The notes: generated from the letters alone by a model not told the origin. 64,000 bases of DNA from Candidatus Aminicenantes bacterium (GCA_963702835.1 OY969762.1:2423601-2487600), one strand, 5' to 3'. Counted from the stretch's first letter, positions 52,778 to 58,618 are shown. Numbers and translations are program-made.

Positions 52778-55757
52778 GCAAGGCGGCCGGTTCGGCCGGC
52801 TCATCCGCAGCCTGGCCTTTCTGAGCAGTATCTTCCTTTTTATTATATCGCCCGCCGCGGAATGCATTTCCCGGCTTTCTCAGGAGCTACCTCAGGCCGC
52901 CGCCTCCGGGCAAAATCTCCTTCGGTTGCTGGGCCTGACCATCCCCCCGGAGTCTGTGGACTACGTGGCCAACAAGACCCAGTTTCAGCTCCACACCCTC
53001 CTCACCGAGCAGCGGCATCCCAAAACCTGGAACCTGAGCGATACGGTCCGGAAGGACACCGCCGCCGGGCTGCAAAAGCTTTTTTCCGTAGACGACGATA
53101 TCGTCGTCCGACTCGACCGGCTGGCGGCCGAACCGGGTTCCCTGGATCAACTCGGCCGGGAAGTCGAGCAGGCCCTGCTCAATCACCGGCGCATATACAT
53201 CTACGGCTGCGGCGCCACCGGCCGCCTGGCCAAACAGATGGAAAGCTGCTTCTGGCGCCCGTTCTGGAAAAAAATCAAGGACGACCCCACGCTCTGGCCG
53301 AAGCTCCGGCCTCATCTTGAGCCGGAGGTCGAGGCCGAGCTCGTAGGAGAAATGACCGGCGCCGACCGGGCTTTGATCAGTTCGCTGGAAGGCTTCGAGG
53401 ACCTGCAGCTCATCGGCCGGCTTCAGCTTCGAGACCGGGGGATAGAAAAGGGTGATGTCGTCATTTGCGTCACCGAGGGCGGTGAGACATCGTCGGTCAT
53501 AGGCACGATCTTGGCCGGGCTCGACGAGTGGAGGGCCGGCCCGGACTTTTCCCCTCTGGCCAGCCGGAGAAAGCTGTACTTCATCTACAACAACCCCGAC
53601 GACCGGCTGAGGCCCTTTGACCGCAGCCGCTCTGTCCTGGAAGAGCCGGGCATCACCAAGATAAACCTAACCACCGGACCCCAGGCCATCACCGGTTCGA
53701 CCCGCCTGCAGGCAACCACCATTGAAACCTTCGTCCTGGGCAGCGTCCTGGAGAAGGCCGTGGAACGGACCCTGAGGCGCTTTCTGTCCCCGGCTGAGAC
53801 AGCCCGAGCCGGGTTTGCCAAGGATGTCCCGCTCGGCCGAAAGCTGGAGCGGTTCAAAACCATCCTGGAAAACGTGAGAGCGGCCGTGCCGGCCCTGGCC
53901 CGCTTCACCGACCTCGAGGCGGCCGTCTATGAATCCGGCCGCTTCTCGACCACCTTCGCCCGCCACGGCCTGATCACGGTCTTTATCGACTCCACCGAGC
54001 GAAGCCCGACCTTCCGGCTCTATCCCCTTGACACCGTGAATGAGCCGGCCCGGAAATGCTGGATCCAGGTCTGGACGCCGGCATCGTCGAAGGAAGAAGC
54101 CTGGAGGGCGTTCCTGGGACGTCCTTTCCGCGGCTTGGCCGAGAGTTTCTACCGGAAGCCGTTCGAGGAGGAGATCGACGACCCTTTCCTCAGGGTCAAG
54201 GCTTTGGACAGCCTGAAGAAGGCGGGAGACAACCAGCAAAACCTTTACGATTTTTCATTCGCCGAGCCGAACATCAGCCGGCGCGGCCCCAAGCCGGGCG
54301 ACCTGGGCATCGGGGTTGTTCTTTCCTCGGACGAAACGGGGCTGGCCAAGAAGAATTCGCCCTTCCTCGGGTTCGGCCGCCTTTTCCTGGCCAAGGGAGC
54401 CCGTCTCGTCCTCCTCGAAACCGGAGGCCGAGCTCCCGGCGCCCCTGCCGACGAGGTCCGCAACCTTGTCCGGGATTGGGAGGGGCGGGAGGGCCGGGTC
54501 GTTACCATCAGCCTGGGCCTCCCCTCGGCCGACGACCCATTCCTCCTCGACCAGCACATCGGCTTGAAGATGCTGCTCAACGCTCACTCCACGGCGGTCA
54601 TGGCCAAACTGGGCCGGGTCATCGGCAACACCATGACCAACGTCAGCCCCTCGAACCTCAAGCTCATCGGACGGGCCACCTATCTCATCCAGAGCCACGT
54701 CAATGATGTTCTGGCTAGGCCGGCCTGGGTGAAGTTATCCGGCACCCGCCAGCCCATCACCTACGGAGAGGCCAACGCGGTGCTCTTCGATTCCATCCGC
54801 TATTTCAAGGAAAATCCCCGAGAGGCCGGCCAGACGGCAGAGGTCGCCCTCTCCATCATCCGCATCCTGGAGTCACTCAAGCTGCAGAAGGGCCTCACCG
54901 CGGAGCAAGCGCTGGCCATCGTGAAAAAGACGGGGCTGGGCCGCTACCTGGAAGGATTCAACGAGCTCGGCCCGGCGGCCTCACAGAGGGTTGGTCACCG
55001 GCAAGCAGGGATGCACCGCCGGCCGCTTCCGGGTTCGGGTCTGCGGATAGACGAACTGCTCGCCGGCATAGTTGCGCATCACCACTTCCCGCTCGTTGAT
55101 GGATTGGACGTAGTTCGGCAGAAGCGGGATCTTTCCCCCGCCGCCCGGCGAGTCGATGACGTAGTAGGGAACGGCCAGGCCCGAGGTCCAGCCGCGCAGC
55201 GACTCCATGACCTCCAGCCCTTTCTCCACCGTGGTCCGCAGGTGCTCGGTTCCCTTTACGTAATCGGCCTGGTAGATGTAGTAGGGCCTGACCCGGACGA
55301 CCAGCAGCCGGTGCATCAACTTCTTCATCGCTTCCGGGCTGTCGTTGACGCCCCTGAGCAGCACGGTCTGATTGCCCAGGGGAATGCCCGCGTCGGCCAG
55401 CAGGCCCAGGGCCCGGGCCGCCTGGTCGGTGATCTCGTCGGCGTGGTTGAAATGGACGTTGATGTAGAGGGGATGGTATTTCTTGAGCATGGCCGCCAGC
55501 TTCGGCGTGACGCGCTGGGGGAGGAAGCAGGGTACGCGGGTCCCGATGCGCAGGATCTCCAGCTGGGGGATGGCCCGCAGCGAGCTGAGGACATACTCCA
55601 GCCTTTCGTCGCTCAGCATCAGCGGGTCGCCGCCGGAGATGATGACGTCCCGAACCTTGGGCTGCTCCCGGATGTAGCGCGGCCCTCTTCCACATGGCGG
55701 AGGCCGATCTTGTCCGGCTGGCCGACCTTGCGCTTGCGCGTGCAGAAGCGGCAGTAG
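52752..55757 (+). CDS. GCKR/MurQ-family double-SIS-domain protein (3' end uncertain)
   Basis: LTEQRHPKTWNLSD and IYIYGCGATGRLA (SIS 1), ITGSTRLQATTIETFVLGSVL and KLIGRATYLI (MurQ/GCKR-like). The family-like sequence ends near 54980 (...AEQALAIVKKTGLGRYLEGFNELGP). The frame then continues with no stop through 55757, entirely antisense to the kamA-like gene. The true start may be the GTG at 52956. Confidence 0.55.
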   Translation: MMTCSSTDEQGGRFGRLIRSLAFLSSIFLFIISPAAECISRLSQELPQAAASGQNLLRLLGLTIPPESVDYVANKTQFQLHTLLTEQRHPKTWNLSDTVRKDTAAGLQKLFSVDDDIVVRLDRLAAEPGSLDQLGREVEQALLNHRRIYIYGCGATGRLAKQMESCFWRPFWKKIKDDPTLWPKLRPHLEPEVEAELVGEMTGADRALISSLEGFEDLQLIGRLQLRDRGIEKGDVVICVTEGGETSSVIGTILAGLDEWRAGPDFSPLASRRKLYFIYNNPDDRLRPFDRSRSVLEEPGITKINLTTGPQAITGSTRLQATTIETFVLGSVLEKAVERTLRRFLSPAETARAGFAKDVPLGRKLERFKTILENVRAAVPALARFTDLEAAVYESGRFSTTFARHGLITVFIDSTERSPTFRLYPLDTVNEPARKCWIQVWTPASSKEEAWRAFLGRPFRGLAESFYRKPFEEEIDDPFLRVKALDSLKKAGDNQQNLYDFSFAEPNISRRGPKPGDLGIGVVLSSDETGLAKKNSPFLGFGRLFLAKGARLVLLETGGRAPGAPADEVRNLVRDWEGREGRVVTISLGLPSADDPFLLDQHIGLKMLLNAHSTAVMAKLGRVIGNTMTNVSPSNLKLIGRATYLIQSHVNDVLARPAWVKLSGTRQPITYGEANAVLFDSIRYFKENPREAGQTAEVALSIIRILESLKLQKGLTAEQALAIVKKTGLGRYLEGFNELGPAASQRVGHRQAGMHRRPLPGSGLRIDELLAGIVAHHHFPLVDGLDVVRQKRDLSPAARRVDDVVGNGQARGPAAQRLHDLQPFLHRGPQVLGSLYVIGLVDVVGPDPDDQQPVHQLLHRFRAVVDAPEQHGLIAQGNARVGQQAQGPGRLVGDLVGVVEMDVDVEGMVFLEHGRQLRRDALGEEAGYAGPDAQDLQLGDGPQRAEDILQPFVAQHQRVAAGDDDVPNLGLLPDVARPSSTWRRPILSGWPTLRLRVQKRQ

Positions 55758-57559: not shown

Positions 57560-58618
57560 TTATTCATGGTTCAGCCCGTACCGTCCGGCCGCTTCGGCCG
57601 CCACGCGAAGAATCAGGTCGGAATAGGTGTAGCCCGCTGTCCGGGCGGCCTTGGGCAGGCAGGAATTCTCCTCGGGGTTGGGCAGGATCCCGGGCAAGGG
57701 GTTGAGCTCCAGGATGTGGGGCTCGTCCCGCTCGTCCAGCCGGACATCCACCCGGCACCAGTCCCGGATGCGGAGGACGCCGCAGGCCTTCTTCACCAGG
57801 TCGGCGATCCGGCCGGCCAGCGCCTGGGGGATATCGGCCGGGCAGCGGAAAATGGGCAGCGGGTTCTGGGGGGTGTCCCACACCCACTTGGCTTCATAGG
57901 AATAAATGGGGTTGGCGCCGGCGGGCAAAAGGCTGTGGTCGATCTCGACGATAGGCAGAACTTCATAGTGCGGATGGTTGCCCAGCACGCCTACCGTGAA
58001 CTCGCGGCCGCCGAGGAACTTCTCGATGATGACCGGCTCGTTGTAGCGGCCGACGATCTCGGCCACTCGTTCGGCCAGCTCGCTCTTGGTCCGGACCACG
58101 CAGTTGTCTTTAATGCCCTTGCTCGATCCTTCATATAAAGGCTTGACGATGGCCGGCAGCGCAATGTTCTTGGGCAGAGTGGAACCCGGGTCGGCCAGCC
58201 AGAACGGCGGGTTGGGGATGCCGTAGTAATTCAGGATCTCCTTAGCCCGCGACTTATCCAGACAAATTCCCAGAGTCAAAGGGTCGGAGCCTGTATAGGG
58301 AATCCCCAGGATCTCGCACAGGACGGGAACATGCGACTCGCGGTTGGGCCCGTACAATCGTTCGGCAATGTTGAAGACGAGGTCGGGCCTTACTTTACGG
58401 ATACGGCCGTAAGCCTGGTCGTCGGATTCGATGGGGAAGACCTGGTGCTTCTCGCTGAGCGCCCGGCTGATCGCTTGAATGGTCTCGTCCGAGTCGCACT
58501 CAGCGAGCATATCAAGTGGAGGCTCGTCGTCTTCTTCGCCCCAAGTCTCGACGAACTTTGAGGAATGAAGCGACGCGGCCATCCCGTTTTTCGAACTGTA
58601 GAGCAATGCGACTTTCAT
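57560..58618 (-). CDS. D-alanine--D-alanine ligase-family ATP-grasp enzyme
   Basis: 352 aa. MKVALLYSSK..., LPAIVKPLYEGSSKGI and HILELNPLPGI motifs of the Ddl-like ATP-grasp fold. First gene after a 265-nt AT-rich intergenic region. Confidence 0.8.
   Translation of the reverse strand: MKVALLYSSKNGMAASLHSSKFVETWGEEDDEPPLDMLAECDSDETIQAISRALSEKHQVFPIESDDQAYGRIRKVRPDLVFNIAERLYGPNRESHVPVLCEILGIPYTGSDPLTLGICLDKSRAKEILNYYGIPNPPFWLADPGSTLPKNIALPAIVKPLYEGSSKGIKDNCVVRTKSELAERVAEIVGRYNEPVIIEKFLGGREFTVGVLGNHPHYEVLPIVEIDHSLLPAGANPIYSYEAKWVWDTPQNPLPIFRCPADIPQALAGRIADLVKKACGVLRIRDWCRVDVRLDERDEPHILELNPLPGILPNPEENSCLPKAARTAGYTYSDLILRVAAEAAGRYGLNHE

What the first reader, a model, noticed from the sequence alone, without database searches (positions are those of the whole stretch)
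54981..58618. Candidate operon: two Ddl-like ATP-grasp ligases, a GNAT acetyltransferase and a KamA-family aminomutase. May make an N-acetylated beta-amino-acid peptide
On the minus strand, after a 265-nt AT-rich intergenic region, four co-directional and tightly packed or overlapping genes encode two D-Ala-D-Ala-ligase-family ATP-grasp enzymes, a GNAT N-acetyltransferase and a lysine-2,3-aminomutase-family radical SAM enzyme. Known precedents each use only part of this set. AblA/AblB (KamA plus GNAT) make N-epsilon-acetyl-beta-lysine. B. subtilis kamA sits next to the acetyltransferase yodP. Ngg combines GNAT and ATP-grasp domains to make the dipeptide osmolyte NAGGN. EpmB pairs with a LysRS paralog, which is absent here. 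A KamA + GNAT + two amino-acid ligases combination therefore suggests a beta-lysine (or other beta-amino-acid) containing di- or tripeptide. That would be a candidate new compatible solute or small peptide metabolite pathway that does not correspond to a described system.
Basis: partly seen in the sequence, partly recalled or inferred. Interest (0 to 1): 0.75.

Follow-up and report, generated by a model that had tools for sequence, protein, structure and literature searches.

The report
Conserved beta-lysine ligase operon, function unknown
A four-gene set (lysine 2,3-aminomutase, two D-Ala-D-Ala-ligase-like enzymes and an acetyltransferase) is conserved across several bacterial phyla and probably makes an undescribed acetylated beta-lysine peptide, but two of its genes are frameshifted in this window.

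Summary
The four genes are present on the minus strand at 54981-58618. They lie behind a 265-nt, 40% GC spacer that carries a perfect sigma-70 promoter.

Two of the genes are not intact here. Single-base deletions at about 57528 and about 55680 frameshift the second ligase and the aminomutase. A third deletion, at 54962, removes the stop codon of the convergent neighbouring gene. All ten related sequences have the intact versions. I cannot decide between real decay and local consensus error, and lean slightly towards error.

The set itself is real. The order G1-G2-GNAT-KamA is kept in 63 of 69 species-level genomes, mostly Aminicenantes. A permuted order, KamA-G1-G2-GNAT, occurs in Desulfovibrio and Planctomycetes. 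Natural KamA::G1-type fusions and G1::G2 tandem fusions exist.

The aminomutase keeps every lysine-specific residue. It is not EpmB and not a glutamate aminomutase. The ligases fail the Ddl cut-offs but keep the catalytic residues. The acetyltransferase is not AblB-like. It is about 50% identical to PDB 2R7H, which I place at Dde_3044 of O. alaskensis G20.

No paper describing the system was found. Best reading: beta-lysine is ligated stepwise into a small N-acetylated peptide. The product and its role are unproven.

The parts
58700..58727 (-). Sigma-70-type promoter (TTGACA, 16-nt spacer, TATAAT; 12 of 12 matches), about 80 nt upstream of the G1 start codon
   Evidence: The sequence is visible. 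The -35 box is conserved in a relative with 89% nucleotide identity (L093).
58619..58883 (-). AT-rich (40% GC) 265-nt spacer between the upstream 271-aa gene and G1. It holds the promoter and the 5' untranslated region.
   Evidence: No Rfam family matched here.
57560..58618 (-). G1: a 352-aa Ddl-family ATP-grasp ligase, intact. This is the ligase type found fused to KamA elsewhere. It carries the A-E-x-D signature at residues 39-42.
   Evidence: Pfam PF07478 at 5.6e-32. It falls below the Ddl cut-off, 167 against 243 bits. The Ddl catalytic residues K215, R255, D257, E270, N272, G276 and S281 are conserved. Relatives are 62-72% identical across 80 genomes. Fusion domains are closer to G1 than to G2 in all 10 cases tested. 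Signature.
56531..57567 (-). G2: a paralogous Ddl-family ATP-grasp ligase, 345 aa in relatives and 34% identical to G1. In this window it is frameshifted after codon 13. An internal ATG at 57502 would give a 323-aa product lacking the first 22 residues.
57527..57529 (-). Site of a 1-nt deletion. The window reads GAG-TCT, where relatives read GAGATCT or GAGGTCT. This frameshifts G2.
56089..56559 (-). GNAT N-acetyltransferase, 156 aa, intact. About 50% identical to PDB 2R7H.
   Evidence: Pfam PF00583 at 8.7e-14. The best NCBIfam hit is RimI at 42 bits, below its cut-off of 86. PDB 2R7H matches at E=2.6e-37.
54981..56071 (-). KamA-family lysine 2,3-aminomutase-like radical SAM gene, 363 aa in relatives. 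In this window a frameshift splits it into ORFs 55619-56071 and 54981-55619.
55679..55682 (-). Site of a 1-nt deletion. The window reads GGGCC-GCGC, where relatives read GGGCCTGCGC. This frameshifts KamA between the radical SAM cysteine motif and the SGGDP motif.

Best explanation
This is a conserved biosynthetic operon that builds a small amide-linked product from beta-lysine.

Step 1 (inferred from conserved residues): the KamA-family radical SAM/PLP enzyme converts L-lysine to beta-lysine.

Step 2 (inferred from gene fusions): G1 is the ligase type found fused to KamA in other organisms. It takes beta-lysine as one substrate and forms an amide bond through an acyl-phosphate, as Ddl does.

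Step 3 (inferred from G1::G2 tandem fusions): the paralogue G2 adds a further residue or makes a second amide bond.

Step 4 (inferred): the GNAT caps a free amino group with acetyl-CoA. A deacetylase of the histone-deacetylase family sits next to the set in two unrelated lineages, so the capped amine may be the terminal alkyl amine.

The result would be a small N-acetylated di- or tripeptide containing beta-lysine. In Aminicenantes the operon is transcribed from its own sigma-70 promoter.

In this window G2 and KamA each carry a single-base deletion. The pathway is therefore either inactive in this strain, or the sequence has local consensus errors.
For: - Gene content and packing. Promoter.
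- Conservation: 63 of 69 species-level loci keep the order G1-G2-GNAT-KamA. The set KamA-G1like-G2like-GNAT occurs in Desulfovibrio mangrovi, in a contig whose GNAT is 99% identical to the 2R7H chain, and in a Pirellulales genome.
- Fusions: more than 35 protein clusters fuse KamA to a Ddl-like ATP-grasp domain. In all 10 fusions tested, that domain is closer to G1 than to G2. Among the 150 best family representatives, 44 are tandem double ligases, including G1-like::G2-like in operon order.
- Aminomutase: the three cluster cysteines and the equivalents of Arg134, Asp293, Asp330 and Lys337 of C. subterminale LAM are present in 65 of 65 orthologues. The best NCBIfam model is AblA (462 bits).
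- Ligases: both keep the Mg/ATP and catalytic residues.
- Accessory hydrolases near the set differ by lineage. They are an HDAC-family deacetylase (59% identical between D. mangrovi and an unrelated MAG), an S51 peptidase (adjacent or fused), an M28 peptidase and an amidohydrolase. This fits turnover of a small acetylated peptide.
Against: - No product has been observed. The substrates of G1 and G2 are unknown.
- Five of the 69 loci lack KamA next to G1-G2-GNAT, so beta-lysine may not be obligatory, or kamA lies elsewhere in those genomes.
- G1 is unusually conserved (62-72% identity across the class). The operon is near-universal in Aminicenantes from non-saline habitats. Both points fit a housekeeping role better than a niche osmolyte.
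- The best NCBIfam hit of the GNAT is the protein acetyltransferase RimI, though weakly.
- In this window two of the four genes are broken.
Confidence: 0.5

Rival explanations
1. Separate question, about the state of this copy. The three single-base deletions in the window are consensus or assembly errors, and the operon is intact in the organism.
For: - All three differences are deletions clustered within 2.6 kb (54962, 55680, 57528).
- One hits the stop codon of the unrelated convergent 736-aa gene rather than the operon.
- They lie next to a strain-variable 2.7-kb insertion site, where consensus building could be poor.
- All ten related sequences have the intact alleles.
Against: - None of the deletions lies in a homopolymer run.
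- There are no indels in the other roughly 6.7 kb aligned to the 99%-identical relative.
- The rest of the window shows long, tightly packed ORFs with no obvious split genes.
Confidence: 0.55
2. The ligases act on a macromolecule. They attach beta-lysine or a short peptide to a protein (as RimK extends ribosomal protein S6, or as EF-P is beta-lysylated) or to an envelope polymer. The GNAT acetylates that target.
For: - G1 is highly conserved and the operon is inherited vertically in Aminicenantes.
- The nearest named NCBIfam model for the GNAT is RimI.
- An MBOAT plus DUF1574-like pair is inserted directly after KamA in some strains.
Against: - Both ligases belong to the Ddl family. As far as I know, its characterised members join small molecules. 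RimK-type models match only weakly.
- No candidate target gene is conserved next to the set.
- EpmB membership fails.
- The MBOAT pair is absent from most loci.
Confidence: 0.12
3. The two ligases build a cyanophycin-like poly-amino-acid polymer containing beta-lysine. One ligase makes the backbone and the other adds the side chain.
For: - Two paralogous ligases are often fused in tandem.
- Distant variants carry a peptidase of the S51 family, which includes cyanophycinase, either adjacent or fused to the ATP-grasp::KamA protein.
- Some lineages have a third ligase.
Against: - The GNAT is conserved in the Aminicenantes, Desulfovibrio and Planctomycete versions. That suggests a capped, defined product.
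- No Mur-ligase-type domain like that of cyanophycin synthetase is present.
- S51 was seen only in the distant variant that lacks the GNAT.
Confidence: 0.08
4. KamA plus GNAT simply make N-epsilon-acetyl-beta-lysine, as AblA/AblB do. The two ligases do something unrelated, and the adjacency is historical.
For: KamA scores best on the AblA model. The pairing of KamA with an acetyltransferase is the known route to this solute (PMC1224877).
Against: - The GNAT is a 156-aa protein and no AblB-type model was among its hits.
- KamA is fused to G1-type ligases in many lineages.
- In the Aminicenantes order, GNAT lies between G2 and KamA with overlapping or near-abutting genes.
- The block G1-G2-GNAT persists without KamA in 5 loci.
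Confidence: 0.07
5. The ATP-grasp genes are ordinary cell-wall D-Ala-D-Ala ligase paralogues that happen to lie beside kamA.
For: The best matches in Pfam, NCBIfam and the PDB are all D-Ala-D-Ala ligases.
Against: - Both fall below every Ddl cut-off (167 and 148 bits against 243).
- Identity to solved Ddl enzymes is low, and the N-terminal domain does not align.
- They are translationally coupled to GNAT and KamA, and fused to KamA elsewhere.
- No mur or fts genes lie nearby.
Confidence: 0.03

Closest known systems
[quoted passage not shown]
   Same: A lysine 2,3-aminomutase sits in one operon with an acetyl-CoA-dependent acetyltransferase. The aminomutase here scores best on the AblA model.
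   Different: - The aminomutase falls below the AblA equivalog cut-off (462 against 525 bits).
- The acetyltransferase is a 156-aa GNAT of a different family (best hit PDB 2R7H).
- Two ATP-grasp ligases are integral parts of the set, and one type is fused to KamA in other lineages.
- Salt induction was not tested.
Ngg, the N-acetylglutaminylglutamine amide (NAGGN) synthase (my knowledge; the solute is described in PMC1224877)
   Same: It combines GNAT and ATP-grasp chemistry to make a small N-acetylated peptide.
   Different: - To my knowledge Ngg is a single bifunctional protein that works with an amidotransferase.
- Here the GNAT is a separate protein, and no GNAT fusion appears among the 150 family representatives.
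- The ligases here are Ddl-type.
- A beta-amino-acid-forming radical SAM enzyme is present.
D-Ala-D-Ala ligase (DdlB, VanA)
   Same: Same fold family. The ATP/Mg and catalytic residues are conserved.
   Different: - Both ligases fall below the family cut-offs.
- The N-terminal domain is divergent and, in G1, carries an A-E-x-D signature.
- Trp replaces Tyr216 in the omega loop.
- The genomic context is non-cell-wall.
PylB/PylC of pyrrolysine biosynthesis (my knowledge)
   Same: A radical SAM enzyme rearranges lysine, and its product is then joined by an ATP-grasp ligase through an amide bond.
   Different: - To my knowledge PylB is not a KamA-family, PLP-dependent aminomutase.
- No PylC entry appeared among the PDB sequence matches to G1 at E up to 1e-5.
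- No pylD, pylS or pylT genes are present.
PDB 2R7H, 'Putative D-alanine N-acetyltransferase of GNAT family'. I recall it as Dde_3044 of Oleidesulfovibrio alaskensis G20.
   Same: It is about 50% identical to the window GNAT over 144 residues (E=2.6e-37). A contig whose GNAT is 99% identical to the chain carries the same four components, KamA, G1-like, G2-like and GNAT.
   Different: - The gene order is permuted, with KamA first.
- A sigma-54 activator lies upstream instead of a sigma-70 promoter.
- The deposited name is a prediction. I found no functional study.

Membership tests
KamA family / lysine 2,3-aminomutase | Radical SAM CxxxCxxC cluster motif | tested here: met
   The motif CASYCRFC aligns to C125, C129 and C132 of 2A5H. 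It is present in 65 of 65 orthologues.
KamA family / lysine 2,3-aminomutase | PLP-binding lysine (Lys337) and the lysine-binding residues Arg134, Asp293 and Asp330 of C. subterminale LAM. The residue roles are from my knowledge of the 2A5H structure. | tested here: met
   All four align identically and are invariant in 65 of 65 orthologues.
KamA family / lysine 2,3-aminomutase | Curated NCBIfam score cut-offs | tested here: inconclusive
   The repaired protein passes the subfamily model TIGR00238 (289.5 against 199.2 bits). It is below the AblA equivalog (462.1 against 525.4), the glutamate model (418 against 650) and the arginine model (335 against 600).
KamA family / lysine 2,3-aminomutase | C-terminal zinc site (Cys268 plus a C-terminal Cys cluster) of clostridial LAM | tested here: not met
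   The position equivalent to Cys268 is Ser here, and Asp, Asn or Glu in orthologues. The protein ends about 50 residues earlier than 2A5H and has no Cys cluster.
KamA family / lysine 2,3-aminomutase | Uninterrupted reading frame in this window | tested here: not met
   A 1-nt deletion at about 55680 splits the gene.
EpmB (EF-P beta-lysylation) | TIGR03821 equivalog score, and an EpmA or efp partner nearby | tested here: not met
   The score is 244 bits against a cut-off of 369.3, well below the AblA score. No lysyl-tRNA-synthetase-like or EF-P gene appears in the annotated neighbourhoods.
AblA/AblB N-epsilon-acetyl-beta-lysine system | AblB-type beta-lysine acetyltransferase partner | tested here: not met
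   NCBIfam hits of the GNAT at E up to 1e-3 are RimI, PRK03624, EctA, PhnO-like and AAC(6') models, all below their cut-offs. No AblB model is among them. I am assuming the library contains an AblB model.
AblA/AblB N-epsilon-acetyl-beta-lysine system | Salt-induced expression and accumulation of the solute | not testable with these tools
   This needs expression or metabolite data.
D-alanine--D-alanine ligase (Ddl) | Curated family score cut-off | tested here: not met
   On NF002378, G1 scores 167.2 bits and G2 scores 147.9 bits against a cut-off of 243. On TIGR01205 they score 134.5 and 128.1 bits against 245.65.
D-alanine--D-alanine ligase (Ddl) | ATP-grasp catalytic residues (K215, R255, D257, E270, N272 of E. 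coli DdlB) | tested here: met
   G1 aligns identically at these positions. G2 keeps the R-x-D and E-x-N motifs.
Ngg-type NAGGN synthase | Single polypeptide fusing a GNAT domain to an ATP-grasp domain, with an amidotransferase partner | tested here: not met
   The GNAT is a separate 156-aa gene. None of the 150 family representatives carries a GNAT domain. No amidotransferase is conserved next to the set.
Cyanophycin synthetase / cyanophycinase system | CphA architecture (ATP-grasp domain plus Mur-ligase-like domain) with an S51 cyanophycinase | tested here: not met
   Neither ligase has a Mur-ligase domain. An S51 peptidase occurs only in distant variants without a GNAT.

The most novel reading that the evidence does not exclude
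The two ligases do not make a free metabolite. Instead they attach beta-lysine, or a short beta-lysine peptide, to a macromolecule such as a protein or an envelope polymer, or they build a cyanophycin-like beta-lysine polymer. That would be a new kind of ATP-grasp-dependent beta-aminoacylation, widespread in Aminicenantes, Desulfovibrio, Planctomycetes and other phyla. The DltB-like MBOAT pair inserted after kamA in some strains could be a hint in that direction.
Probability: 0.15. Interest if true: 0.85.

Novelty: new variant of a known kind. Interest (0 to 1): 0.6.

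Why it matters
Beta-lysine is known as a fermentation intermediate, as the precursor of one archaeal osmolyte, as an EF-P modification and as an antibiotic building block. 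This work links lysine 2,3-aminomutase, by conserved gene order and by gene fusion, to a dedicated pair of Ddl-type ligases and an acetyltransferase.

- The four-gene set spans several phyla.
- No product or phenotype is on record in the literature I could search.

If the prediction holds, a common but unrecognised beta-lysine peptide metabolite exists in abundant sediment and soil anaerobes.

The question is directly testable. By my gene-number inference, the same set is Dde_3041-3044 of O. alaskensis G20. That organism has an archived transposon mutant library (PMC4045070), and its acetyltransferase already has a crystal structure (PDB 2R7H).

Tried and rejected
- Looking up three other window proteins, to recruit near-identical contigs and measure the indel rate across the window, found nothing on record. 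The error-versus-real question therefore rests on about 12 kb of comparison.
- Iyer et al. 2009 on ATP-grasp amidoligases is not held in the library.
- An Rfam scan found no riboswitch in the 5' region, only three tRNAs in the whole window.
- Literature searches found no description of the system. The terms covered ATP-grasp with aminomutase, GNAT or beta-lysine; Aminicenantes with aminomutase; KamA with Ddl; Dde_3039 to Dde_3047; and Desulfovibrio with beta-lysine.
- I considered the MBOAT plus DUF1574-like pair as operon members. I rejected this because the pair is present only in L001-L003 and L093, and absent from the window, L090-L092 and all 80 other genomes.
- I considered the upstream 271-aa gene as a member. 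I rejected this because it is syntenic only within Aminicenantes, is often separated from G1 by inserted genes, and is absent from the Desulfovibrio, Planctomycete and KSB1-type loci.
- I rejected glutamate 2,3-aminomutase because both Asp residues are retained, and to my knowledge they are replaced in that enzyme.
- I rejected the EpmB, cell-wall Ddl and lysine-fermentation readings. No kamDE, kdd, kce or kal genes lie nearby.
- I did not run structure prediction. Sequence already places both ligases in the Ddl fold family, and the tool returns no coordinates from which a substrate pocket could be judged.

Full report
**What is in the window**

On the minus strand, downstream of a 265-nt spacer (58619-58883), lie four tightly packed genes. 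The spacer is 40% GC, against about 60% for the window.

| Gene | Coordinates | Size | Family evidence |
|---|---|---|---|
| G1 | 57560-58618 | 352 aa | Pfam Dala_Dala_lig_C, 5.6e-32 |
| G2 | 56531-57567 | 345 aa in relatives | Dala_Dala_lig_C, 1.7e-32 |
| GNAT | 56089-56559 | 156 aa | Acetyltransf_1, 8.7e-14 |
| KamA-family | 54981-56071 | 363 aa in relatives | LAM_C; TIGR00238 289.5 bits against cut-off 199.2 |

- G1 and G2 overlap by 8 nt. G2 and GNAT overlap by 29 nt. GNAT and KamA are 17 nt apart.
- The spacer contains a perfect sigma-70 consensus promoter (TTGACA, 16 nt, TATAAT) at 58727-58700.
- Rfam finds no riboswitch in the spacer.
- The operon ends 18 nt from the end of a convergent 736-aa SIS-domain gene.

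**Defects in this copy**

- KamA is split into ORFs 55619-56071 and 54981-55619. Inserting one base at about 55680 restores a continuous 363-aa KamA protein.
- G2's own ATG (57567) reads 13 native codons, shifts frame and stops after 22 codons. The 323-aa ORF listed by the tool starts at an internal ATG.
- Alignment to a 99%-identical genome contig (L001) and to relatives at 97%, 89% and 85% identity shows single-base deletions in the window at about 57528 and about 55680. Every relative that covers these sites is intact.
- A third single-base deletion at 54962 removes the TGA of the convergent 736-aa gene. This creates the 1001-aa plus-strand ORF.
- A scan of JGI metagenome contigs, with a pattern that matches either KamA allele, found only the intact allele.

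Points that favour local consensus error:
- The window has three deletions within 2.6 kb.
- One of them lies outside the operon.
- All lie beside a strain-variable insertion site.

Points that favour real mutations:
- None of the deletions is in a homopolymer run.
- No indels occur in the other roughly 6.7 kb aligned to L001.
- The rest of the window has long, unbroken ORFs.

I put error at about 0.55.

**The individual enzymes**

*Aminomutase.*
- The repaired protein scores 462 bits on AblA (cut-off 525), 418 on glutamate 2,3-aminomutase (650), 335 on arginine 2,3-aminomutase (600) and 244 on EpmB (369).
- It matches the C. subterminale LAM structure 2A5H at E=1.4e-118.
- It keeps C125, C129, C132, Arg134, Asp293, Asp330 and Lys337. 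All are invariant in 65 orthologues.
- The zinc ligand Cys268 and the C-terminal Cys cluster are absent.
- It is therefore a lysine-type 2,3-aminomutase of an unassigned subgroup.

*Ligases.*
- G1 and G2 are 34% identical paralogues.
- Their best hits are Ddl, but both are below the cut-offs (167 and 148 bits against 243).
- G1 keeps K215, R255, D257, E270, N272, G276 and S281 of DdlB. Trp replaces Tyr216.
- G2 keeps the R-x-D and E-x-N motifs.
- Both look catalytically competent.

*Acetyltransferase.*
- The GNAT passes no named NCBIfam model. Its best hit is RimI at 42 bits against a cut-off of 86, and no AblB model is among its hits.
- It is about 50% identical to PDB 2R7H, 'Putative D-alanine N-acetyltransferase of GNAT family' (E=2.6e-37).

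**Conservation**

- A motif scan of species-representative genomes confirmed at least 589 stretches that encode a G1 relative.
- The best 80 loci are mostly Aminicenantes. A few are labelled KSB1, Caldithrix or Neomarinimicrobiota.
- Of 69 loci with at least 3.7 kb after the G1 start, 63 have G1-G2-GNAT-KamA in that order on one strand. Five have G1-G2-GNAT without KamA. One has only G1-KamA.
- In Desulfovibrio mangrovi, in a contig whose GNAT is 99% identical to the 2R7H chain, and in a Pirellulales genome, the order is KamA, G1-like, G2-like, GNAT. This keeps the G1-G2-GNAT block and moves KamA to the front.
- The two Desulfovibrio loci and one Caldithrix-labelled locus have a sigma-54 activator directly upstream.

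**Fusions**

- Among the 150 best representatives of the G1 family (1037 representatives at E up to 1e-30), 44 are tandem double ligases and 4 are KamA fusions. None carries a GNAT.
- A search seeded with one fusion found more than 35 clusters of KamA::ATP-grasp proteins (644-944 aa). They come from Deltaproteobacteria, Magnetoovum, Omnitrophota and an archaeon.
- In all 10 fusions tested, the ligase domain is closer to G1 than to G2, for example 202 against 132 bits.
- G1, the first Desulfovibrio and Planctomycete ligase, and the fused domains share an A-E-x-D...T-I motif that G2-type proteins lack.
- This motif sits where Ddl carries its S-A-E-R-E-V-S loop. To my knowledge Glu15 in that loop binds the amine of the first D-Ala. 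Two acidic residues there would suit a diamino acid. That is inference only.

**Accessory genes**

They vary by lineage:
- a third ligase plus an M28 peptidase in three KSB1-type loci;
- two further ligases after a KamA fusion;
- an S51 peptidase adjacent to, or fused with, ATP-grasp::KamA, together with an AMP-binding-like protein;
- an amidohydrolase;
- a 585-aa HDAC-family protein that is 59% identical between D. mangrovi and an unrelated MAG.

Peptidases and deacetylases beside a ligase/acetyltransferase set suggest synthesis and turnover of a small acetylated peptide. To my knowledge HDAC-family enzymes remove acetyl groups from alkyl amines. That would fit acetylation of the terminal amine of the beta-lysine moiety.

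**Mechanism proposed**

1. Lysine is converted to beta-lysine by KamA.
2. G1 forms an amide bond involving beta-lysine.
3. G2 forms a second amide bond.
4. The GNAT N-acetylates the product.

Steps 1 and 2 rest on conserved residues and on the fusions. Steps 3 and 4 are inferred. The order of steps is unknown. Confidence is about 0.5.

The operon is near-universal in Aminicenantes from peat, lake sediment, soil and aquifers (record titles). G1 is 62-72% identical across them, which is more typical of a housekeeping function.

**Comparison with known systems**

- It works most like a merger of the AblA/AblB route to N-epsilon-acetyl-beta-lysine (PMC1224877) with ATP-grasp/GNAT N-acetyl-peptide synthesis, as in NAGGN. 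It is a member of neither.
- The AblA cut-off is missed and the acetyltransferase is of a different family.
- There is no bifunctional Ngg-type protein.
- EpmB, cell-wall Ddl and cyanophycin synthetase membership all fail tested features.
- No paper in the held library describes the set.

By matching neighbours, I place the G20 genes at Dde_3040 (activator) and Dde_3041-3044. The anchors are Dde_3039, a cutC paralogue (PMC4045070), and Dde_3047, a Ser/Thr phosphatase (PMC8836040), matched against the contig. That numbering is an inference.

**Verdict**

This is a real, widely conserved and apparently uncharacterised operon. I class it as a new variant of known small-molecule amide-forming pathways. 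The copy in this window is either damaged or mis-sequenced.

Noticed in passing
window 54960-54962 (end of the plus-strand gene 52752-54962): A single-base deletion relative to L092 and L093 removes the TGA stop codon of the convergent 736-aa SIS-domain gene. As a result the ORF runs on for 1001 aa, antisense through kamA. This is the third 1-nt deletion within 2.6 kb.
   Followed up: partly
window 54959-54971; L001:11651-14368; L093:5697-8415: Some close relatives carry a 2.7-kb insertion exactly between kamA and the convergent gene. It encodes a 358-aa protein with a weak DUF1574 match and a 485-aa MBOAT acyltransferase. In L093, KamA and these two proteins are 95-97% identical to those of L001, whereas G1, G2 and GNAT are only 85-89% identical. 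This suggests the block moved by recombination.
   Followed up: partly
window 59809-59894, 8684-8768, 31536-31614 (weak partial match at 41879-41931): A GC-rich repeat of about 80 nt occurs at least three times in the window at 94-95% identity. The copy between queC and the 271-aa gene lies in a 174-bp stretch that is absent from the 99%-identical relative L001. It may be a small mobile or REP-like element.
   Followed up: partly
window 58884-59699 (minus strand): A 271-aa protein with no Pfam or NCBIfam match and an internally repetitive sequence lies upstream of G1. It keeps that position throughout Aminicenantes at 25-40% identity, but is absent from the non-Aminicenantes versions of the operon.
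   Followed up: partly
window 52752-54962 (plus strand): A 736-aa protein with weak SIS and MurQ-etherase-like matches is the conserved convergent neighbour of the operon in most Aminicenantes loci. Its function is unknown.
   Followed up: no
L094:9629-11386 and L079:13947-15686: A 585-aa protein with a histone-deacetylase-family domain and a weak N-terminal GNAT match lies just after the operon. It occurs in Desulfovibrio mangrovi and in an unrelated MAG, and the two copies are 59% identical. It may be a dedicated deacetylase for the product.
   Followed up: partly
L094:3857-5293, L095:3874-5310, L082:8291-9643: A sigma-54-dependent activator lies directly upstream of the operon in the two Desulfovibrio loci and in a Caldithrix-labelled locus. 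The Aminicenantes version instead has a sigma-70-type promoter.
   Followed up: no
window 60002-61639 (plus strand); tRNAs at 29191-29277, 42014-42087 and 42145-42219: A queC gene (231 aa), followed by ORFs that correspond to the PTPS-type and radical SAM genes of the relatives' annotation, lies divergently upstream. Three tRNA genes are the only Rfam matches in the window.
   Followed up: no
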